In this document: positions 1 to 11,142 of the stretch, one piece after another | How positions within the stretch are numbered: position 1 is the first letter of the stretch | Layout of the letters: the number at the start of each line of letters is the position of its first letter | Assembly (NCBI GenBank): GCA_965644315.1 | Contig: CBFFRQ010000204.1 | Coordinates: forward strand, 1-13,982 | Direction: 5' to 3' | Length of the DNA: 13,982 nucleotides | DNA from: Caecitellus pseudoparvulus | Lineage: Eukaryota > Protista > Bigyra: Bicosoecida | Program-made: the position numbers and the translations under genes | Notes under the pieces: generated by a model | Seen by the model: the letters and a program-made list of their open reading frames with translations, nothing else | Databases searched by the model: none | What the model was told of the DNA's origin: nothing

Positions 1-718
1 ACGCACTTGGGCCGGCGACATGACTACTCTCTTGTCCCATTCCTGCGTGAGTTTAAGAGGAGTGCCAGGTCATCGCACGGGCATTCACCCCGGACGGTCA
101 AGGGAGGGGGCTGGGAGTCCATTAAATGGGGGTGGACGAATGGGACTAATGGCTGGTACCCTTGGGGAAGGTTTGGGGTGCAAGCTGACAGCACGTATTC
201 CATGGTCTTTGACAATGGTGACAGCAAAGGAGACATGCTTGCTCTGTTTCATCAGGCGTCGTGGACGTTTCGTCAAAGACTGGGCGGTACCGAGAGGCAG
301 CGGGAAATGTCGCTGGCAGGCCTGTAAGGCTTTGAGACAGCTTGTGGGGCACAGGGTGACGAGGGCCGGGTGGAGCAGGACGTACACAATGTGCGCGGGG
401 ACAATGTGGAGGCGCGACTACCATTACTTGGTCTGTTTTCGCTTTCAGCTTGAAAATCAGCCCAGTATCAACGTGGAGTGTGCGATAGTGGACGGCGGTC
501 CGATTTCGCAAGATGTAGGAGACACCGAGGCACGCATGCAAATCGTCAAAACGTGTCGCAAAATACACAGGCAACTTCATCCATGCAGAGCATGTGGACA
601 GCGTCTGACACAGGGAGAATGATTCCCGACATGGTGCCCAAGGAATGAATTCATTGTCGCCTCTTGTTTTCACCACACTCACCTCACACTTGCTCCTCAA
701 GGAAGCGGGCCGGTGCGT

Positions 719-743
719 CGAGAATAAGTTTATAGTCTAGGTA
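719..743 (+). repeat. Left terminal inverted repeat
   Basis: CGAGAATAAGTTTATAGTCTAGGTA. Its reverse complement TACCTAGACTATAAACTTATTCTCG matches 6143..6167 at 24/25 positions. It is an AT-rich island in GC-rich DNA. Confidence 0.9.
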
Positions 744-764
744 AATTGTCGGGTGACAAAGGTG

Positions 765-777
765 GCATTTGGACACT
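765..777 (+). repeat. Left subterminal inverted repeat (partner 6056..6068)
   Basis: GCATTTGGACACT is the exact reverse complement of AGTGTCCAAATGC at 6056..6068. Confidence 0.7.
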
Positions 778-1045
778 CATGAACTTGGATTTGATCTCCT
801 TCACTTGGCGCCTTTGCCCCTCTCTCCTTGACCGTCACATCGTTTTGAATGTACCCCCCACCTCCTCCGGTACCAGCTCCAACGGGCGCCCCCACTGACC
901 GAGGAACGACATTGCGCTACCCAGGCCAGGATGCCGCGAAGAGCCCCAGGGGTGCTTACAACGCACTGTATCAAGGTAGAAAGGTCCAAGGCTTCTGAAT
1001 GTCAGCTTTGCTCGCTCCGGGCCGTGGCCATTGCACAAGGGTGCC

Positions 1046-1328
1046 ATGCTCCACGCAAGGGCAGTAGCAACTCAACCTTCGTTGACGGCACTCACTACCA
1101 CTGCTCCTCTGACGTGTGTTTTTGGCGTGCAATGGCGAAAAAAGGATTTGAAGCTCACTCCTGTGGGGCAGGACGTGTCAAAATGGCAGCAGAAGGTGCG
1201 TACTCGCGTCTTGTGGTGCAAACGGCGTTTCGCCCATAACGGCAGCACCAGCTGCGAGCCTTTCCGTACCACAGAGCAAGATGCAGACACTCTGGTGCCC
1301 CATGAAGCACCACAAGGGCATGAAGAAG
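1046..1328 (+). CDS. Putative upstream coding exon of the transposase
   Basis: Open frame (MLHARAVATQP...FGVQWRKKDLKLTPVGQDVSKWQQK...PQGHEE) ending at AAG|GTGAGG (1329). A phase-1 GT-AG intron 1329..1408 with a pyrimidine-rich CCGCAG acceptor joins it exactly into the transposase frame. Confidence 0.4.
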
Positions 1329-1431
1329 GTGAGGCTGAAGCTTCTCTCCTGTTTCCTGCAGGCTCTCAGCTCGTACCTGCAGTCCCCCATGTCCACCTCT
1401 GTCCGCAGGCCATCCTGGTGCCCAGAGCCCC

Positions 1432-4400
1432 TTGGAGGTTACAGTTGCTTCGGTCTCGGTCGAAGACCTGTCACCAGAGTCACTGGCAGAATCAACGTTG
1501 CAGAGCCTGCGCCGCAGCGTTCCGCTGGGGCACGGTAGCACGTGGTCCGACCAGGCCCTGGCCCAGTCTGAAGCTATTGTTCACAGGTGTGCCCCAGCAG
1601 CCTCCCACCTTCTCCTTCACGGTGACATGAGTCCAGGCGAGCTCACCAAGCAGTGCTCTGCACTGGGGCCCGCTGAGCATTGCCTCCCACAGCCTCCTAG
1701 GGAGGTTCTCGTGCCCACCTGTCCAGCGGCGCTCGCCGGGAACATGAGCACAATCCTGACCGTGTTAATGGCATCGCCTGCCAAGCCTGCCACTGTTGAG
1801 CTTGTCGGGTCGAGCGTGATGATGGTGCGCGCTGCCTTGGGCAGGATGGCGCTCCCTCCACAGCCTGGGGAGGGGCTTGTGCTGGCCTACATGGCAGACA
1901 AGGCAGAGATTGGGATTGCGGCCGCGTTGCGGGACGCACAGGGACCCGTGACTGCCGCTCTTCGGGACAAGGTCGGCAGCATTGAAGGTGGCTTGGTGTA
2001 TCGAACCACAGACCGCGAGGAGGAGTGTGTCGGCGAGCAGGGTCTCCTCGGGGGATACACACACACCATCCACGAAGACAAGTGGTATGTCGAGAAACCT
2101 GAGCATGCTGCGGTCGCTGGCACAGTTTACAAGCATTTCATTCCTCACCAGAAGCAGCCCCCAGAGCGGCGGATTCAGGCAGTTGGCGTCGCTGCCGCAC
2201 ACCCAGCTCTGGGGAGCAGGTTCGATCAGGCGGATGAGGAGACCCACAAGCTGGTCGAAGGACCCATCCCCTGGACACCTGACGGGCACACCTTCCCCGA
2301 CAGCGATGCATACCAAGCCAAAGCCGCAGAAGGGGGGGTTTCCTTTCGGTCAGCCATGGCAGCGCGTGCTGAGGAGCCATGGACAGGGGGGGCCGCAGCT
2401 GCAGAGGCTGGCCCGCTGCCTGAGAAGTTGACTGGGATGCTCAGGAACATGGAAAAAGAACTAAAGGAAAGTATGGCCCCAAGTTCGACGGCCGCTCCTT
2501 TGCGAATGATGTCTGTCCCGGTAGACGGAGGCTCAGACGGACGCCCTGTGGTGCCCTGGGGCATGTGTCCCAACGCGGACACGGCCGGCACTTGTGCCTG
2601 GACAACAAATGGGATACAGGAGTGTACGCAGTGTTTGATTACTGGCATGCGTGGCGTGCAGTCGGTCAAAAAGGTCAGGTACACCTGCCAGAAGCACGGT
2701 GCCTCTGTCCTTGTCGGTACGCAGAAGTTCTGGAAGCTCAAGGACCGGCTTTTCCCCGAGCAGCAGCAGGACGGTACCCCCTTTCCCCATATGGAGGGGC
2801 GCAGGCTGAACCTGTCCATACCTTGTGCACTTGCTGGCTCCCTGCTCCTGGATGAAGATGCAGCAGAGAGTTTGTGGGAGTGCTACGTCGCGCACCGTCG
2901 CGAAGGCATGGCCAAGGTACAGGATGCATTCTACAGAGACCTGATGCACCCTTTTCGGGACACGTTTAGGAAGTGGAAGAGAGAGCTGCGACAAAAGTTC
3001 TGGTACCAGAAGGACGATGCCATTGGCAGGGCCGTGGCGGGGATCGTGCGCCGCGTGAGGACCCCCATCGAGGAGAGGCTGCAGCTGAGCACTGGTGTGG
3101 AGGCTTTGCGAGATGCTGTGCTGCATATCTTCCATGTCACAGTGGAGCCACACGTCAGTCTGTACGAGGAAGCCCTAGCGCGCTTCGCTGACACCATCAG
3201 CGTGGACTGGACCTTCGCATCCTCCGCGCGGGTGCACGTGGTTGGTCCGAGGCCTGGGCAGCATGACAGCATGCAAGCAGCTGACGTGCCCCCCGGACCT
3301 GATGGGCAGGAGTACGACGGAGAACATCCAGATGGAGATGATGATGAAGCTGGTGAAGACACAGGCGATGCGCAGGCCTTGCCAGCATGCACCGGGGATG
3401 GCAGTGGTAGCACTGCCACAGCAACTCGGGCCAGAGGCACAACCCGGTGGCGGGTAGCTCCCTGTATAGCCACGGTTGTGGGGCGATACGGCTTCATCTT
3501 GCAGCGTCCCATGCTCACGGGCCACGAGAGTGGGGCCAACCTGGCCTGGGTCCTGGACTTTTTACTGTGCAAGCTGAAGGGACACCTGCGGGAGCGTGGC
3601 CCGGCGGCGTCCCACCCCATCGTCATCACAGTGGACAACCTCAGGACCCACCAGCACACCCTGCAGAAAATCATCGACGTGCACTTCCCACTGCTAAAGA
3701 AAGGCGTGGTGCGGTTCGCGGTAGACCCGTGGCACTTCGCCAGCCGCGTGACCAAGACCATTCCCAGCAAATCCGTGCACCAAGATGGCAAGATGATGTC
3801 AAGGCTTTGGTTTGACACTGTACACTGGATACGGACGCCCCCCAGAACGGAAGTGTCTTCGCGCTTGATGCTGCCAGAGCGAGACATTGATCAGCAGTTG
3901 AATGACCTGCCCTCTGCAAGGGAAGCGATACAGGGATTCAAAGCTTGCGCTCATGCTATCCTTGCACGCAAGCCCCTGAGCCAGGGACAGCAGGGGGTGG
4001 TCAAGTCCTTCCTTGCCAAGTTTGGGTGGGCTGTGTATGGGCCAGCGCGTGCAGTTGGGGCTGCTGCAAGGCTTCGCAAGCACGTCCCCCTCGCCTTGGC
4101 AGCTGTGTGTGCCGCTGCTGCCGGCATGCTGCATCGCCGCTCCCGTGGCCAGCCATTCACTGTGACTGCTGAAGGCGTACATGAAGGTGAAGGTGCCGTT
4201 CCCATGCTTCCTCTGCACGTGGGTCCAGACAACGTGAGCCAAGCTCAGGCTGAGCTGAAGCGGGTTGCCAAGCTCTTCGAGGTAGTCTGGGCGCCCCCCA
4301 GCGAGAGTGGTGCCACATCTGTTGTACGCGGTGCTCCCACCCACGGCATCCTTGAGAAAGGATCCCCCTACGCATTGACTCGATCCCGGGTCAAGGCCTC

Positions 4401-5232
4401 ATGCAAGAACTTAGTCGGCATTCAGGGTCTGATGAATGGGCGGGATGCGGTTCACGGCGCGACGACAACAGGGGGAAACGAAAGCCTACACGCTGGGATG
4501 CGAGACATGGTGACGGCAGGGACCTCAACCCGCCTCGATGTGGCCAAGATGAACCTGACACTGTACTGGCTGGAGAGGAACCAAGCCACTGCTGCCAAGC
4601 TGCTGTCTAAGTACACCAACTCGCACAGTCGCAAGCGCGAGACCCGATCCAAGGCGGGCAAAGCAGCAGACAGCTTGGATCTGCTGTCTGCGTTGTGCTC
4701 TAGTGTCACTGGCCTCGGTGATGGAGAGATCACTGCGGCGCTTCAACGCAACCCAGTTCCACCCGCTCCACCATCCTTCGAGGAAGTCGAGGCCTCTGGT
4801 CTGCCCCTGTACCACAGGGCCACCTCGTCTGTCACCCCGGAGTTAGAACATGAGATTCGCCAGCTGTTCCTGGAGGAGCAGCAGGCACGCAAGGATGGGA
4901 CCTGCCCCTACAGTGAGAGAACGTTGGTATCACGGGTTGCCTCTGCAGCACACGCAACGGAAGGACAGGTGAGGAAGGTAGCCCAAATGATGCAGGCGGA
5001 GGCAGCTGTCCAAGATGAAGAGGTCAAGACTCAGAAGCAGAGTGGGGCCGAGACAGGCCACGAACGTGCGGGGGCCAAGGTTGGTCCAAAGGGTGGGACG
5101 GCCAAGACAGAAGCAAAGGTCGGTGGGGCCAAAACGAAAGCTCGCACTGGTGGGAAAAAGAGGTCCATGGGTAATAAACCCGTGCGAAATCTGTCAAAAC
5201 GGCCGCGGCGCACGAGCGCATGCGCTTTCTGA
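1432..5232 (+). CDS. DDE transposase, Dada/DUF6729-like (MULE-hAT-P-Kolobok-IS256 group)
   Basis: 1266-codon ORF with no disruptions. Motifs in order (ORF numbering): zinc finger CPx7C...NG...RYTCQKH (2566..2697); ISVDWTF (D592, nt 3205); ATVVGRYGFIL...LTGHES; PIVITVDN (D735, nt 3634); HFPLL; VDPWHFASR (DxxH, D765/H768); TTGGNESLH (E1017, nt 4480); helical HTH; Lys/Arg-rich NLS-like tail (GGKKR, SKRPRR). The TTG start is doubtful: the first in-frame ATG is at 1627, or the exon is entered by splicing at 1409. Confidence 0.82.
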   Translation: MEVTVASVSVEDLSPESLAESTLQSLRRSVPLGHGSTWSDQALAQSEAIVHRCAPAASHLLLHGDMSPGELTKQCSALGPAEHCLPQPPREVLVPTCPAALAGNMSTILTVLMASPAKPATVELVGSSVMMVRAALGRMALPPQPGEGLVLAYMADKAEIGIAAALRDAQGPVTAALRDKVGSIEGGLVYRTTDREEECVGEQGLLGGYTHTIHEDKWYVEKPEHAAVAGTVYKHFIPHQKQPPERRIQAVGVAAAHPALGSRFDQADEETHKLVEGPIPWTPDGHTFPDSDAYQAKAAEGGVSFRSAMAARAEEPWTGGAAAAEAGPLPEKLTGMLRNMEKELKESMAPSSTAAPLRMMSVPVDGGSDGRPVVPWGMCPNADTAGTCAWTTNGIQECTQCLITGMRGVQSVKKVRYTCQKHGASVLVGTQKFWKLKDRLFPEQQQDGTPFPHMEGRRLNLSIPCALAGSLLLDEDAAESLWECYVAHRREGMAKVQDAFYRDLMHPFRDTFRKWKRELRQKFWYQKDDAIGRAVAGIVRRVRTPIEERLQLSTGVEALRDAVLHIFHVTVEPHVSLYEEALARFADTISVDWTFASSARVHVVGPRPGQHDSMQAADVPPGPDGQEYDGEHPDGDDDEAGEDTGDAQALPACTGDGSGSTATATRARGTTRWRVAPCIATVVGRYGFILQRPMLTGHESGANLAWVLDFLLCKLKGHLRERGPAASHPIVITVDNLRTHQHTLQKIIDVHFPLLKKGVVRFAVDPWHFASRVTKTIPSKSVHQDGKMMSRLWFDTVHWIRTPPRTEVSSRLMLPERDIDQQLNDLPSAREAIQGFKACAHAILARKPLSQGQQGVVKSFLAKFGWAVYGPARAVGAAARLRKHVPLALAAVCAAAAGMLHRRSRGQPFTVTAEGVHEGEGAVPMLPLHVGPDNVSQAQAELKRVAKLFEVVWAPPSESGATSVVRGAPTHGILEKGSPYALTRSRVKASCKNLVGIQGLMNGRDAVHGATTTGGNESLHAGMRDMVTAGTSTRLDVAKMNLTLYWLERNQATAAKLLSKYTNSHSRKRETRSKAGKAADSLDLLSALCSSVTGLGDGEITAALQRNPVPPAPPSFEEVEASGLPLYHRATSSVTPELEHEIRQLFLEEQQARKDGTCPYSERTLVSRVASAAHATEGQVRKVAQMMQAEAAVQDEEVKTQKQSGAETGHERAGAKVGPKGGTAKTEAKVGGAKTKARTGGKKRSMGNKPVRNLSKRPRRTSACAF

Positions 5233-6055
5233 CCGGCCAAGTTTCACGGGAGTTTCACCCCAGAACCAGTCCAACAAAGACGGCCTCCAAACCCACAAAG
5301 AACGAAGCAGTTCTGAGCTTATTTTACGCCTCGAAATGTATGCCACCAAATAACGCTTCTTGCAGGATTACAGCCATCCCGTACTCTACCGCACCCTCTG
5401 TGGGTCCACATGGAACTCGGCCAGGGAAGAGTGCCAGATGAAACGCCACGCCGGGCCGTTTGCCGAGTCTCCTGAGCACATGAGGCAAGCAAGAAGCCTA
5501 CCATACCTTTGAATATTCTAAAGCCTCTTATTCTTTTCCATTGATACCCAGTTTTGATGAAAAGATAGTGAAAATTGAGTGTCTGGAGGTGGATGAAGGG
5601 TAAGAGTTTGGAGTCACACGAGAAGTAGATAATCACTCCCAGGACAACAGCTTGCACATCCTTCTATCGCAGTCTACAAGACATTTCAACACATTCAATC
5701 TGGCTAGAATGCATCATATCTACTTAAAGACGTACCCCCTTGACTCTTGTTGCCGCAAGTGAGCTCCTGAGTGTGTACTAGGTGCCGGAGCCTCCGGGGC
5801 GGCTGATCAAGTTCCGCATTCCGCAACGGTCGGTGCTGATTGGTGGTTTTCTCGAGAGAGAGACGATCAGAAGATGCCTTAACTACCAAGACACAAGATC
5901 CCGTGAATTCATGGACTTTCGGTTTGGTTTCACTCATGGGGAGCGCCTGGATGGTCCTGTGGGACAACGCAACAGTCGAGGACAATGTTGCCCACCAAAA
6001 CACGTCCCAAACTTGCCTCAATATCAAGCAAACGGCCCATGCAAGTGAGCGCAAT

Positions 6056-6068
6056 AGTGTCCAAATGC
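6056..6068 (-). repeat. Right subterminal inverted repeat (partner 765..777)
   Basis: AGTGTCCAAATGC, 13/13 inverted match. It sits 74 bp inside the right TIR, whereas the left copy is 21 bp inside the left TIR. Confidence 0.7.
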
Positions 6069-6142
6069 TGTTTAAATTCTTTGCTCTTGGCCCCAAACAC
6101 AGCTTCACACCCCAACACTCACTTCTTCGCGGAGAACTATCG

Positions 6143-6167
6143 TACCTAGACTATAAACTTATCCTCG
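6143..6167 (-). repeat. Right terminal inverted repeat
   Basis: TACCTAGACTATAAACTTATCCTCG, the inverted copy of 719..743 with one mismatch (6163). Confidence 0.9.
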
Positions 6168-6306
6168 TTCACACGTGCACCGTCCACCTGCCTGCCGACA
6201 GCTCCTGCTCTGGGGCCAAGCTGATTGTGGACATGAGCAAAGCCAGCTGGAGTGAAAGCAGGTGGCTATTGTTTGAGAATGGTGTGATTTTGAGCAGGGA
6301 TTGTCA

Positions 6307-6460
6307 GGGTGTCCGGCTCCGCACCCTCCGGGTGTCCGGCTGAAGGGGGCCTCCGGCCCCTTCGTCCAGCCGTCCCCCCCCACCCCCACACGACCGCCTC
6401 CCCAGCGCCCGTGCGCCACCGCGGCACGCCACAATCCCCACCAGCCACTCCCAGCCACCT
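6307..6460. repeat. GC-rich short direct repeats, hairpin and C-tracts
   Basis: GGGTGTCCGGCT at 6307 and 6330; hairpin GAAGGGGGCC-TCC-GGCCCCTTC (6342..6363); several C-runs; CCAGCCAC at 6441 and 6451. Confidence 0.5.
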
Positions 6461-7884
6461 AACCAAACCACTTGCATGCATTTCCTGGCCATCCCCGCCA
6501 CTTTGAAAAGTCACTCACAGTTGACAGGCGTTCGCGCAAAAGTTGCCACCCGCGAAGGATCGGTGACGGAAGGGGGTACCGTTGTGGAGCCTTGAGCCCA
6601 CACGCAATGTCATCTCCAGCAGAAACATGGATATTTCTAGTAGCAATGCCGAAATTGTGCTGTTTTATTGTGTTGGTGCACCAGTGACTTGTTTCTCGCC
6701 GCAAAGCCAAGAGAGCGTGTGGGTCGTTTGGCGAAGGCAGCAGGTGCAGAATAGTGCACGCTTCACGCTGAAAAGCTTGTGCGTGCTGATCCTGCTCGAC
6801 TAGTTGACTACAGGAGAAAATGGTGGGGTTGAATTCATTCTGGTGTCCTTGTTTGGTGAGCAGCTTGTGCGAATGCTGCAGGGTGCCTCTGCGCGCTGGA
6901 GTCATCAGCCGCACATCTCAGAGCTAACGTGCAAGCCTTCGCAAAGAGGCAGGCAGGTGTTGAAGTTAATTTCTGTTGGGAACATTAAGATAAAGTGCAC
7001 TTGCATGCGCTACACTGCTGATAGGAAGAGCAGCTTCCGAGACAAAGGCCGCAAGCCGGGCGGTGTTTGTGCGGCGCAATTTCCGCACGAAAGCCACGAC
7101 GCACACAGCTGAAGAAGGATTGCAAACGCTTTCTCCGCACACCCTTCATGAAGTACGGAGACCATAGGTCAACAATCGTTCATTCTTGATTGAACGGGAT
7201 CGCTCTCCCCTCCGGGAAGCGCGACCAGGAACTCTGCGTTGCTGGCAGGCATCCAAGTGTTTCTCCACCGTGGAGCTATTTTCAGGCCGCACAGCGGCAA
7301 ACGACCCGGGTGCGTGGAGGCTGAACTTCAGAATGCCTTCAGAGGCTAGAACGATGAGCAGTGTCTTTGTGTGCAACTCTCCACAGGGCCGGCGAGCAGA
7401 GGTCGCCATCACTCACGCACATATCCAACCTGTGCATCATTCACGGAACTCCACTTCCAGAGTCACAGCAGCAGAGCTTGCATACATGGAGCCAATTGAA
7501 TTTCACTCGCCTCACCTTCTCCGCATCGCTGCACTTGCACCCCTTGGCTCAAGTAAGTACAGAATGCTGGAAGCGCAGCATCGTGTGCTCGAAAGCTGCC
7601 CCCGCCAAGTCCCGCTGCCGTGTGGCTGTTACCGGGTACCTGTGCTGCTACCCGCCGTATCCTTGCTGTGTCCTTCACCATAGCATGGTGGCCCCCTCAC
7701 ACTCCTCATGTAGCTTGTCTTTGCCGGTGGTCCTCCTGCGTGGGGCCTGCCCTTCACCCGTATTGAGCAGCCCAAGACACATTACATTGACTCGCGTTTC
7801 CGCAGCTTCCGTGATCAGGAACAACCCTTCAATGCAAGAGTTGCTTCAAGACTGTCCAAGTGCACCGACAGCATTCCAAGGAAA

Positions 7885-10800
7885 ATGAAGTTGTTCAATG
7901 CCAAGGTCCCCAATTCCACGGGTTTGAATCTGCGCACTGCTCAACGACCACCAGCATGGCGTTTCGGTATCGCTCTGTTGGCTCTGCTGATAGGTGGTGC
8001 GCATGCCTTCAGTAGCAACAGCACCCTCCGTGGGCTGAAGCGACGTGAGGTGCTCGTCCCTCTTGGCAGGCTGCTGACTGCGGGCCTTGCTCCAATGGCC
8101 AATTTCTCGGTTGGCGGCTCCCACACCTGTGTTGTGCTGACTAGTGGTGACGTGATGTGCTGGGGGGATGGAGGGAGTGGCAGACTTGGGTACGGCAACA
8201 TTGACAACATCGGTGACGATGCGCTCCCGTACACAGCAGGCACTGTGAATCTGGGCACGGGTGTGACCGCTGCACAGGTGTCGGGTGGTAGCACCCACAC
8301 CTGTGTTGTGCTGACTAGTGGTGACGTGATGTGCTGGGGGGATGGAAGGAGTGGCAGACTTGGGAACGGCAACACTGACAACATCGGTGACAATGAGCTC
8401 CCGTACACAGCAGGCACCGTGAATCTGGGCACGGGTGTGACCGCTGCACAGGTGTCGGCTGGTAGCACCCACACCTGTGTTGTGCTGACTAGTGGTGACG
8501 TGATGTGCTGGGGGTATGGAAGGAGTGGCAGACTTGGGAACGGCAACACTGACAACATCGGTGACAATGAGCTCCCGTACACAGCAGGCACCGTGAATCT
8601 GGGCACGGGTGTGACCGCTGCACAGGTGTCGGGTGGTAGCACCCACACCTGTGTTGTGCTGACTAGTGGTGACGTGATGTGCTGGGGGTATGGATGGAGT
8701 GGCAGACTTGGGTACGGCAACACTGACAACATTGGTGACAATGAGCTCCCGTACACAGCAGGCACCGTGAATCTGGGCACGGGTGTGACCGCTGCACAGG
8801 TGTCGGCTGGTAGCACCCACACCTGTGTTGTGCTGACTAGTGGTGACGTGATGTGCTGGGGGTATGGATGGAGTGGCAGACTTGGGTACGGCAACACTGA
8901 CAACATTGGTGACAATGAGCTCCCGTACACAGCAGGCACTGTGAATCTGGGCACGGGTGTGACCGCTGCACACGTCTCGGCTGGCGACTCCCACACGTGT
9001 GTTGTGCTGACCAGTGGTGGCGTGATGTGCTGGGGGGATGGAGGGAGTGGCAGACTTGGGTACGGCAACACTGACAACATCGGTGACGATGAGCTCCCGT
9101 ACACAGCAGGCACTGTGAATCTGGGCACGGGTGTGACCGCTGCACAGGTGTCGGCTGGTAGCACCCACACCTGTGTTGTGCTGACTAGTGGTGACGTGAT
9201 GTGCTGGGGGTATGGATGGAGTGGCAGACTTGGGTACGGCAACACAAACGACATCGGTGACGATGCGCTCCCGTACACAGCAGGCACCGTGAATCTGGGC
9301 ACGGGTGTGACCGCTGCACAGGTGTCGGGTGGTAGCACCCACACCTGTGTTGTGCTGACTAGTGGTGACGTGATGTGCTGGGGGGATGGAAGGAGTGGCA
9401 GACTTGGGAACGGCAACACTGACAACATCGGTGACAATGAGCTCCCGTACACAGCAGGCACCGTGAATCTGGGCACGGGTGTGACCGCTGCACAGGTGTC
9501 GGCTGGTAGCACCCACACCTGTGTTGTGCTGACTAGTGGTGACGTGATGTGCTGGGGGTATGGAAGGAGTGGCAGACTTGGGAACGGCAACACTGACAAC
9601 ATCGGTGACAATGAGCTCCCGTACACAGCAGGCACCGTGAATCTGGGCACGGGTGTGACCGCTGCACAGGTGTCGGGTGGTAGCACCCACACCTGTGTTG
9701 TGCTGACTAGTGGTGACGTGATGTGCTGGGGGTATGGATGGAGTGGCAGACTTGGGTACGGCAACACTGACAACATTGGTGACAATGAGCTCCCGTACAC
9801 AGCAGGCACCGTGAATCTGGGCACGGGTGTGACCGCTGCACAGGTGTCGGCTGGTAGCACCCACACCTGTGTTGTGCTGACTAGTGGTGACGTGATGTGC
9901 TGGGGGTATGGATGGAGTGGCAGACTTGGGTACGGCAACACTGACAACATTGGTGACAATGAGCTCCCGTACACAGCAGGCACTGTGAATCTGGGCACGG
10001 GTGTGACCGCTGCACACGTCTCGGCTGGCGACTCCCACACGTGTGTTGTGCTGACCAGTGGTGGCGTGATGTGCTGGGGGGATGGAGGGAGTGGCAGACT
10101 TGGGTACGGCAACACTGACAACATCGGTGACGATGAGCTCCCGTACACAGCAGGCACTGTGAATCTGGGCACGGGTGTGACCGCTGCACAGGTGTCGGCT
10201 GGTAGCACCCACACCTGTGTTGTGCTGACTAGTGGTGACGTGATGTGCTGGGGGTATGGATGGAGTGGCAGACTTGGGTACGGCAACACAAACGACATCG
10301 GTGACAATGAGCACCCAGTTACTGCTGGAGCTGTGTCTGTCGCAGCCCCTTCAGCAGCTCCAACTACGAGCAGCTCACCTTCGTCGTCGCCCACCCAGTC
10401 CCCTTCACATTCGCCAACGTCGTCTCCGACTGCATCGTCTTCGGCATCACCAACACCCACGGCAACACCATCAGTGTCGGGCACACCATCACAAACGGCC
10501 TCTTCCACTGCCACGAGCACACCCTCCACAACAGGCACGCCTACCGTGACGTCAACGCCCACTCCAACCTCAACGCCGTCTCCATCAGTATCGGGCACAC
10601 CGTCACAAACGGCCTCTTCCACTGCCACGAGCACACCCTCCACAACAGGCACGCCTACCGTGACGTCAACGCCCACTCCAACCTCAACGCCGTCTCCATC
10701 AGTATCGGGCACACCGTCACAAACGGCCTCTTCCACTGCCACGAGCACACCCTCCACAACAGGCACGCCTACCGTGACGTCAACGCCCACTCCAACCTCA

Positions 10801-11142
10801 ACGCCGTCTCCATCAGTATCGTGCACACCGTCACAAACGGCCTCTTCCACTGCCTCCACAACAGGCACGCCTACTGTGACGTCAACGCCCACTCCAACCT
10901 CAACGCCGTCTCCATCAGTGTCGGGCACACCCTCTGCATCTTCGGCAGCGCGGCTTGCCGACTCAGCGCAGGGCTCAGTCACGGGCAATGACGGAACACA
11001 GAGCTCGAATGCGTACCTGGGTGCCGGTATTGCGGTCATTGTTGGCCTTTTCCTTTGTGTTTGTGCGTTCGTTCTATACCGACGACGCAAACAAGGCAGC
11101 CGCAAACAAGCACGTCACATCGAAAAGGAGCAACCTGTGTGA
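7885..11142 (+). CDS. Type-I membrane protein with extracellular RCC1/BLIP-II beta-propeller repeats and a Ser/Thr/Pro mucin-like stalk
   Basis: 1085 aa. Hydrophobic signal FGIALLALLIGGAHA with an A-x-A cleavage site; 13 repeats of 58 aa carrying the RCC1 signature VSAGxxHTC..L.SG.V.CWG.G.SGRLG; S/T/P stalk; TM segment AYLGAGIAVIVGLFLCVCAFVLY (11011..11079) followed by stop-transfer RRRK; 20-aa cytoplasmic tail. Confidence 0.93.
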   Translation: MKLFNAKVPNSTGLNLRTAQRPPAWRFGIALLALLIGGAHAFSSNSTLRGLKRREVLVPLGRLLTAGLAPMANFSVGGSHTCVVLTSGDVMCWGDGGSGRLGYGNIDNIGDDALPYTAGTVNLGTGVTAAQVSGGSTHTCVVLTSGDVMCWGDGRSGRLGNGNTDNIGDNELPYTAGTVNLGTGVTAAQVSAGSTHTCVVLTSGDVMCWGYGRSGRLGNGNTDNIGDNELPYTAGTVNLGTGVTAAQVSGGSTHTCVVLTSGDVMCWGYGWSGRLGYGNTDNIGDNELPYTAGTVNLGTGVTAAQVSAGSTHTCVVLTSGDVMCWGYGWSGRLGYGNTDNIGDNELPYTAGTVNLGTGVTAAHVSAGDSHTCVVLTSGGVMCWGDGGSGRLGYGNTDNIGDDELPYTAGTVNLGTGVTAAQVSAGSTHTCVVLTSGDVMCWGYGWSGRLGYGNTNDIGDDALPYTAGTVNLGTGVTAAQVSGGSTHTCVVLTSGDVMCWGDGRSGRLGNGNTDNIGDNELPYTAGTVNLGTGVTAAQVSAGSTHTCVVLTSGDVMCWGYGRSGRLGNGNTDNIGDNELPYTAGTVNLGTGVTAAQVSGGSTHTCVVLTSGDVMCWGYGWSGRLGYGNTDNIGDNELPYTAGTVNLGTGVTAAQVSAGSTHTCVVLTSGDVMCWGYGWSGRLGYGNTDNIGDNELPYTAGTVNLGTGVTAAHVSAGDSHTCVVLTSGGVMCWGDGGSGRLGYGNTDNIGDDELPYTAGTVNLGTGVTAAQVSAGSTHTCVVLTSGDVMCWGYGWSGRLGYGNTNDIGDNEHPVTAGAVSVAAPSAAPTTSSSPSSSPTQSPSHSPTSSPTASSSASPTPTATPSVSGTPSQTASSTATSTPSTTGTPTVTSTPTPTSTPSPSVSGTPSQTASSTATSTPSTTGTPTVTSTPTPTSTPSPSVSGTPSQTASSTATSTPSTTGTPTVTSTPTPTSTPSPSVSCTPSQTASSTASTTGTPTVTSTPTPTSTPSPSVSGTPSASSAARLADSAQGSVTGNDGTQSSNAYLGAGIAVIVGLFLCVCAFVLYRRRKQGSRKQARHIEKEQPV
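8122..10310 (+). repeat. Coding tandem array of 174-bp units, 13 copies (last one diverges at its 3' end)
   Basis: The HTC codon block starts at 8122, 8296, 8470, 8644, 8818, 8992, 9166, 9340, 9514, 9688, 9862, 10036 and 10210: an exact 174-bp period with no indels. Confidence 0.98.
8207..10305 (+). repeat. Higher-order 1044-bp (6-unit) tandem duplication
   Basis: Units 8-12 are identical to units 2-6. Segments 8207..9250 and 9251..10294 differ at only one position I could see (8244 T vs 9288 C, synonymous). Confidence 0.93.
10468..10931 (+). repeat. Coding tandem repeat, 114-bp (38-aa) Ser/Thr/Pro unit, about 4 copies
   Basis: The TCG(G/T)GCACACC anchor occurs at 10477, 10591, 10705, 10819 and 10921 (spacing 114, 114, 114, 102). 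The fourth unit has a 12-bp in-frame deletion and a GGC>TGC change. Confidence 0.95.

What the first reader, a model, noticed from the sequence alone, without database searches (positions are those of the whole stretch)
719..6167. Dada-like transposase inside an element with true 25-bp TIRs and no small-RNA target: possible undescribed transposon lineage
Seen: an intact DDE/DxxH transposase ORF between near-perfect 25-bp inverted repeats. Established, from recollection of the Dada superfamily: DxxH-type DDE transposase, insertion into U6/U1 snRNA or tRNA genes, 6-7-bp TSDs, only very short subterminal inverted repeats. Here the motif series (S.D.TF, TV.G..G.IL...LT..ES, TVDN, FP.L, D.WHF..R, G...ESLH) looks Dada/DUF6729-like, yet there are conventional TIRs and I recognise no snRNA or tRNA halves in the flanks. 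Inference: a divergent protist branch that kept or regained TIRs and has different target rules. The intact ORF and 24/25 TIR identity suggest it is young and possibly active.
Basis: partly seen in the sequence, partly recalled or inferred. Interest (0 to 1): 0.78.

Follow-up and report, generated by a model that had tools for sequence, protein, structure and literature searches.

The report
Dada-related transposon with inset inverted repeats
This is a multicopy jumping gene, likely from a marine single-celled eukaryote, whose cutting enzyme most resembles the Dada group; its 25-base mirror repeats lie inside the ends, not at them, and no small-RNA landing gene is detectable, so it likely widens a known group and does not found a new one.

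Summary
The inverted repeat (719-743/6143-6167, 24/25) and the DDE/DxxH transposase frame are real. The 'true TIR' reading is not supported. Contigs of three public runs follow the window 8 bases past the right repeat, to 6175, then diverge or stop. On the left, shared sequence reaches 711 in one run and about 641-648 in two others. The repeats are therefore subterminal, the Dada layout, but 25 bp against the published 7-9 bp. The protein has no relevant Pfam hit. Language-model features place it next to DUF6729 (0.94), which I recall as the Dada family, and a relative's model matches the IS256 transposase best (Z 10.6). No RNA gene lies in the flanks, flanks differ between copies, and no clean target duplication is seen. 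The C-terminal CCHC finger of Dada is absent, and no Dada sequence was available for a tree, so membership is unproven. Verdict: a divergent, apparently untargeted Dada-related family; a new variant of a known kind.

The parts
641..710 (+). Outer left segment. Favoured reading: the element's true left end, beginning AGGAA at 641. Rival reading: an adjacent repeat or target.
   Evidence: 6 contigs of X1 and 3 of X7 join the window at 648 from unlike upstream DNA, with a consensus ending AGGAAGTTC. One X7 contig spans 641-900 and then runs on unlike the window. The X1 flank contig at depth 29 stops at 681. Dada-U6 ends of zebrafish and Capitella begin AGGAA.
711..718 (+). 8-bp spacer outside the left repeat; 711 is the rival left end (mirror position of 6175)
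   Evidence: An X11 contig begins at 711. Only 2 of 8 bases pair with 6168-6175.
719..743 (+). Left subterminal inverted repeat, 25 bp, 32% GC
931..1195 (+). Predicted first exon with a CxxC...HYHC...C...H zinc finger
   Evidence: The ORF 931-1239 matches the N-termini of P0013 (E 7e-6) and P0006 (E 1e-3) in pairwise BLAST and is in the same frame as the long ORF.
1196..1408 (+). Predicted GT-AG intron (acceptor at 1408 or 1369; 1361 needs a weaker donor); no RNA evidence
   Evidence: The join gives one open frame of 1362 aa (1375 aa with the 1369 acceptor). Other joins are also in frame.
1409..5232 (+). Main transposase exon: C-C-C-H finger (2560-2697), D at 3205, D at 3634, DxxH at 3724-3735, E at 4480, basic C-terminal tail
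6143..6167 (-). Right subterminal inverted repeat
   Evidence: no listed variant of four runs falls in 6141-6175, whereas 7 sites vary in 6124-6140 (the table does not list every difference)
6168..6175 (+). 8 terminal bases; right end at 6175 (or 6174)

Best explanation
This is a multicopy DNA transposon of about 5.5 kb whose DDE/DxxH transposase is likely a distant Dada relative; its 25-bp inverted repeats sit inside the ends, and it likely inserts without a small-RNA gene target. Shown: the repeats, the catalytic motif set, several copies in four public runs, a right end 8 bp outside the right repeat, and differing flanks between copies. Inferred: a spliced transposase of about 1360 aa binds the two inset repeats through its zinc-finger and helical parts, cuts at a fixed distance outside them and joins the ends to new DNA with the RNase H-fold DDE site, as in the IS256/MULE/hAT/P/Kolobok/Dada group. 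The left end is most likely 641 (about 55%) or 711 (about 35%). Any target duplication is 6-7 bp and imperfect, or absent.
For: Invariant D, D, DxxH and E in 7 of 7 family members at 21-26% identity. Best ESM Atlas clusters carry DUF6729 for the window core (0.94, 193 of 256 features) and for relative P0006 (0.95); Mutator and MULE clusters score 0.80-0.83. The model of relative P0007 (pLDDT 61) matches ISCth4/IS256 first (Z 10.6, rmsd 4.7, 241 aligned); Foldseek ranks ISCth4, Hermes and P transposases among its first ten rows, all at E > 1e-3. Right end at 6175 in 3 of the 4 runs laid. Left extension to 641-648 in 2 of 4 runs and to 711 in 1 of 4. Published Dada elements have subterminal repeats only, and two of three Dada-U6 ends shown begin AGGAA. 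With ends 641/6175 the flanking hexamers match at 4 of 6; with 641/6174 the heptamers match at 5 of 7.
Against: No profile-HMM hit to DUF6729 or any transposase family. The DUF6729-Dada link is my recall, with 0 papers found for the term. No C-terminal CCHC finger. D-to-D spacing is 84-88 aa in relatives (143 here) and D-to-E 282-481 aa, against 68 and 176 in Dada-U6_DR. Ends rest on few short contigs with truncated tables (148 and 16 loose-end rows not shown), and no whole second copy was seen. The window reads AGGAATG where other copies read AGGAAGTTC. An asymmetric 78/8-bp inset is unlike the symmetric 14-bp inset I read from the Dada-U6_DR figure. A 4/6 flank match arises by chance about 4% of the time per register (my arithmetic).
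Confidence: 0.6

Rival explanations
1. The family is a separate, unnamed superfamily of the C/DxxH group, sister to Dada and not part of it.
For: No HMM hit. Only 13 proteins among 1.84 billion representatives match, none with a family name. CCHC finger absent, much longer insertion domain, 25-bp repeats, no RNA target. Three deep subgroups, each with SH-aLRT of 99 or more in a quick tree.
Against: Two family members independently score 0.94-0.95 against DUF6729 clusters, well above Mutator. A zinc finger precedes the first D and the repeats are subterminal, both as in Dada.
Confidence: 0.15
2. The element is target-specific after all: the 641-710 segment is one half of an unrecognised multicopy target, and the element starts at about 711.
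For: The segment also occurs followed by other sequence after about 711 (loose ends at 698-700 in X3 and X7), abuts the element in two contexts (window and one X7 contig), and an X11 contig starts at 711. One-sided insertions are reported for Dada.
Against: Right flanks differ between copies. No empty-site joint from about 718 to 6168 was listed in four runs. No Rfam or tRNA match. Sister families at 40-67% protein identity exist and could share the left end.
Confidence: 0.13
3. One reading: the 25-bp repeats are true terminal repeats, with ends at or within 2 bp of 719 on the left and a short duplication such as GTGC (713-716/6175-6178) in a palindromic site.
For: Ends 717/6174 give a 4-bp duplication and a 10-bp palindromic empty site; 10 of 3000 random junction grids did as well (criteria chosen after seeing it). 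Ends 719/6174 give 4 of 6.
Against: Bases 6168-6175 are shared by copies in three other runs, so 6167 is not the end. Bases 711-718 and 641-718 are attached to the element in X11 and X7. At 719/6167 the flanks match 1 of 6, 1 of 7 and 0 of 8.
Confidence: 0.08

Closest known systems
Dada superfamily (Kojima & Jurka 2013, PMC3706591, parts 1-3 of 4 and Figs S2, S3 read; Kojima 2022, PMC8869645, parts 1-3 of 5 and supplement passages read)
   Same: DDE triad with DxxH; zinc finger before the first D; no terminal repeats but subterminal inverted repeats; length within 4.7-11 kb; often imperfect or replaced flanking hexamers; possible AGGAA start as in Dada-U6.
   Different: Repeats of 25 bp, not 7-9 bp; no small-RNA gene target found; no C-terminal CCHC finger; fourth finger ligand H, not C, in this copy; much longer D-to-E insertion; no exonuclease domain seen.
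Pfam DUF6729 (PF20499) proteins; their identity with Dada transposases is recalled, not shown by a call
   Same: Top three ESM Atlas clusters for two family members (0.91-0.95); DUF6729 is carried by 24-82% of those clusters' members.
   Different: The Pfam model itself gives no hit, even at E 10.
IS256 (ISCth4 TnpA, PDB 6XG8) / MuDR-MULE transposases
   Same: Best structural match to a relative's model (Z 10.6); C/DxxH signature.
   Different: No MULE or Mutator Pfam hit; Atlas scores 0.80-0.83; no long terminal repeats and no 8-9-bp duplication at any tested end pair.

Membership tests
Dada | DDE triad with DxxH after the second D | tested here: met
   Invariant in 7 of 7; RNase H fold in a relative's model.
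Dada | Sequence or tree affinity to described Dada transposases | tested here: inconclusive
   Atlas features point to DUF6729; no HMM hit. The paper's alignment file could not be read, so no tree with Dada references was built.
Dada | N-terminal CCCC zinc finger before the first D | tested here: inconclusive
   C-C-C-H in the window family and in P0004, P0010, P0012; CxxC as last pair in P0006 and P0013; 162-176 aa before the first D against 135 in Dada-U6_DR.
Dada | C-terminal CCHC zinc finger | tested here: not met
   Pattern absent from the window protein and from the C-termini of 6 of 6 relatives; none seen in the three forward frames of 5233-6145.
Dada | No terminal repeats; subterminal inverted repeats | tested here: met
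   Shared sequence extends outside both arms and the outer 8 bases pair 2 of 8; the arms are longer than published.
Dada | 6-7-bp target site duplication | tested here: inconclusive
   4 of 6 or 5 of 7 for a left end at 641; 1 of 6 for 711; left end not fixed.
Dada | Insertion into a multicopy small-RNA gene | tested here: not met
   No Rfam or ARAGORN hit in the flanks or in six computed joins; right flanks differ among copies. A very divergent RNA gene could be missed.
Kolobok | TTAA duplication, RR...YY termini (PMC9587614, passages) | tested here: not met
   No TTAA at any candidate end.
MuDR/MULE and hAT | True terminal repeats with an 8-10-bp duplication (recalled) | tested here: not met
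   Repeats are inset; in-register flank identity is 0-3 of 8 and 1-4 of 9 over six end pairs; no Pfam hit.
KDZ/Zisupton | KDZ transposase and CxC domains (recalled) | tested here: inconclusive
   No Pfam hit; not among the Atlas rows shown.

The most novel reading that the evidence does not exclude
A deep, unnamed branch of C/DxxH transposons in marine microbial eukaryotes, sister to Dada, that lands without an RNA-gene target and recognises its ends through long inset repeats: an intermediate between TIR transposons and target-specific Dada, showing how Dada's short target-mimicking repeats could have arisen.
Probability: 0.2. Interest if true: 0.7.

Novelty: new variant of a known kind. Interest (0 to 1): 0.45.

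Why it matters
The 2013 paper could define Dada ends only for elements inside small-RNA genes, and the 2022 survey kept only such elements by design. A Dada-related family with mappable ends, scattered insertions and long inset repeats would give the missing untargeted comparison for asking how Dada finds its targets and where it cuts. The family is invisible to Pfam, so it is probably unannotated wherever it occurs. The surprise is limited: the 2013 list already holds algal, fungal and protist Dada families without a named target, and unchecked notes of this scan report untargeted Dada elements in other genomes.

Tried and rejected
No host genome is held, so copies could not be collected directly. 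An exact search for the repeat core gave 0 matches in viral contigs and 10 in metagenome contigs, all 10 unrelated chance matches. Protein-based locus searches found nothing in viral contigs or prokaryotic genomes; tblastn of plasmids gave no match. Word-indexed protein searches gave 1 hit each. A PDB sequence search gave only noise. The full-length model was poor (pLDDT 41) and its Foldseek result is meaningless. A 30-base loose end upstream of paralogues of 6177-6294 was tested as an empty site: it fits 645 (top 0.3% of positions, 4-7%) and 717 (2-3%) about equally, so it decides nothing. A CG 2-bp duplication at 719-720/6166-6167 was dropped because the right end lies at 6175. A resemblance of TAGTCTAG in the repeat to a tRNA A box was dropped because a sister copy changes it. 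A U2-like look of 6286-6300 had no Rfam support. Searches of papers: Dada+transposon+terminal inverted repeats+DDE (9 papers), Cafeteria+DNA transposon+Dada (0; the genus was only a guess), DUF6729 (0), Dada/Kolobok/Zisupton/DxxH (42, 20 listed), Dada+subterminal inverted repeats (1, irrelevant). From listings and abstracts none describes a Dada with long repeats; Repbase entries and subscription papers were not searchable.

Full report
Observation. The inverted repeat is as described: 719-743 and 6143-6167, 24 of 25 bases complementary, the best of 87 inverted pairs in the window, with about 1e-5 expected by chance. The long frame is open from 1339 to 5232; the first ATG is at 1627. No tRNA lies in the window. 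Rfam gave only sub-threshold noise for 1-7800 and for each flank alone, and ARAGORN found 0 genes in 6 computed flank joins.

The protein. Pfam and NCBIfam give no relevant hit. A full phmmer scan of 1.84 billion representatives returned 13 proteins: one near-identical copy, six fragments of sister families at about 40-67% identity, and six distant relatives of 615-1695 aa at 21-26% identity. In the alignment of one window-family member and those six, D, D, DxxH and E are invariant, and a cysteine-rich finger precedes the first D. The window's own model failed (pLDDT 41). A model of relative P0007 (pLDDT 61, pTM 0.52) shows the RNase H order of strands and matches ISCth4, an IS256 transposase, first among 48,161 chains (Z 10.6, rmsd 4.7, 241 residues; integrases follow at Z 8-9.8 over about 150 residues). 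Foldseek lists ISCth4, Hermes and P transposases at the top, none below E 1e-3. [quoted passage not shown] Within it, the ESM Atlas ranks DUF6729 clusters first for the window core (0.94) and for P0006 (0.95), and Mutator or MULE clusters at 0.80-0.83. The tool notes that its calibration was not measured for parts of proteins, and that DUF6729 marks Dada transposases is my recall. Against plain membership: the C-terminal CCHC finger that the 2013 paper finds in all Dada transposases is missing, and the D-to-E stretch is 282-481 aa against 176. A quick, unfinished tree of 9 rows gives three deep subgroups and contains no reference sequences.

A missed exon. The ORF at 931-1239 is in the same frame as the long ORF and matches the N-terminal zinc finger of two relatives. 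Removing a GT-AG intron from 1196 to 1408 gives 1362 aa without a stop; other joins also work. Splicing is predicted, not shown; two compensating frameshifts are the alternative.

Copies and ends. No host genome is held. Of 24 listed runs, 20 hold part of the stretch, from 11 studies, many of them marine. I laid 5 of them, all as contigs: X1, X3, X7, X11 on 1-7800 and X1, X3, X7, X12 on 6060-6680. X1 may be the window's own source. In X1 the flank contigs 129-681 and 6521-7800 have depth about 30, and interior majority forms about 150-250; depth is not a copy number, but this points to several copies. At the right end an X12 contig follows the window to 6175 and then runs on unlike it, an X1 contig matches to 6175 with two letters left over, and an X7 contig ends at 6175; the X3 contig stops at 6146 and says nothing. 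The stretches 6177-6294, 6295-6359 and 6386-6569 occur in other contexts and are separate repeats. So the right end is 6175 (or 6174), 8 bases outside the arm. At the left end the data conflict. Six X1 contigs and three X7 contigs meet the window at 648 from unlike upstream DNA, their consensus ending in AGGAAGTTC, and one X7 contig runs from 641 through the arm to 900 with a different upstream flank. This favours an end at about 641, where the window reads AGGAA, the start of the zebrafish and Capitella Dada-U6 ends in Fig. S2. But an X11 contig starts at 711, the exact mirror of 6175, and versions of the 648-711 segment continue into other sequence in X3 and X7. Neither call listed a loose end at 718/719 or 6167/6168, though both tables were cut (148 and 16 rows not shown). 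No joint marking an empty site was listed.

Target site. With 641/6175 they match at 4 of 6, with 641/6174 at 5 of 7, with 711/6175 at 1 of 6. A third option, 717/6174, gives a perfect 4-bp duplication inside a 10-bp palindrome (10 of 3000 random grids, post hoc), but it conflicts with the X7 and X11 contigs. The duplication is unresolved. Imperfect, replaced or one-sided duplications are reported for Dada.

Age. Three other full-length proteins are 96-97% identical to this one and differ from each other at 27-31 of 1173 residues; two shorter proteins look like one frameshifted copy (same contig inferred from equal contig length). Several intact frames make recent activity of the family plausible. 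This copy carries minority letters at many sites, including seven just inside the right arm, and a variant left end, so it is not shown to be young or mobile.

How it likely works. Shown: catalytic residues, fold class in a relative, inset repeats, multiple copies with different right flanks. Inferred: the spliced enzyme binds the two 25-bp repeats, cuts a fixed distance outside them and inserts at scattered sites. [quoted passage not shown]

Comparison and verdict. It works like a Dada element in enzyme class and end layout. It is not filed as a member, because two defining features (CCHC finger, small-RNA target) were tested and not met and the tree test could not be run; the paper's protein alignment was unreadable here. 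The headline of conventional TIRs falls. What remains is a divergent, unannotated, apparently untargeted Dada-related family with unusually long inset repeats. Unchecked notes of this scan describe untargeted Dada elements in other genomes, which lowers the surprise without counting as support. Interest 0.45; new variant of a known kind.

Noticed in passing
window 6295-6375: Start of a separate high-copy repeat beginning CAGGG with GC-rich hairpins; many contigs join at 6288-6308. It looks like one end of a hAT-type element (recalled resemblance); its other end is not in the window.
   Followed up: partly
window 6177-6294 and 6386-6569: Two further repeat fragments at 85-90% identity to copies in other contexts; the element sits in a cluster of repeat debris.
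   Followed up: partly
window 7885-11142 (+): Uninterrupted 1085-aa ORF: 13 RCC1 repeats on a 174-bp tandem unit, a Ser/Thr/Pro stalk on a 114-bp unit and a C-terminal hydrophobic segment; likely a surface protein.
   Followed up: partly
window 728-733 (-) and 6153-6158 (+): Each repeat arm holds TATAAA reading outward, and a sister copy keeps it; it could be a binding site or an outward promoter.
   Followed up: no
window 3240-3430 (+): An acidic insertion of about 55-60 aa between the first strands of the catalytic core, present in this family and sister P0038 but not in the six distant relatives.
   Followed up: partly
window 20-622 (+): 200-aa ORF with no Pfam hit ending just before the element; 1-128 appears multicopy in X1.
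   Followed up: partly
window 675-689, 6106-6123, 6168-6174: Short TCACAC/CACTCAC direct repeats near both ends.
   Followed up: no
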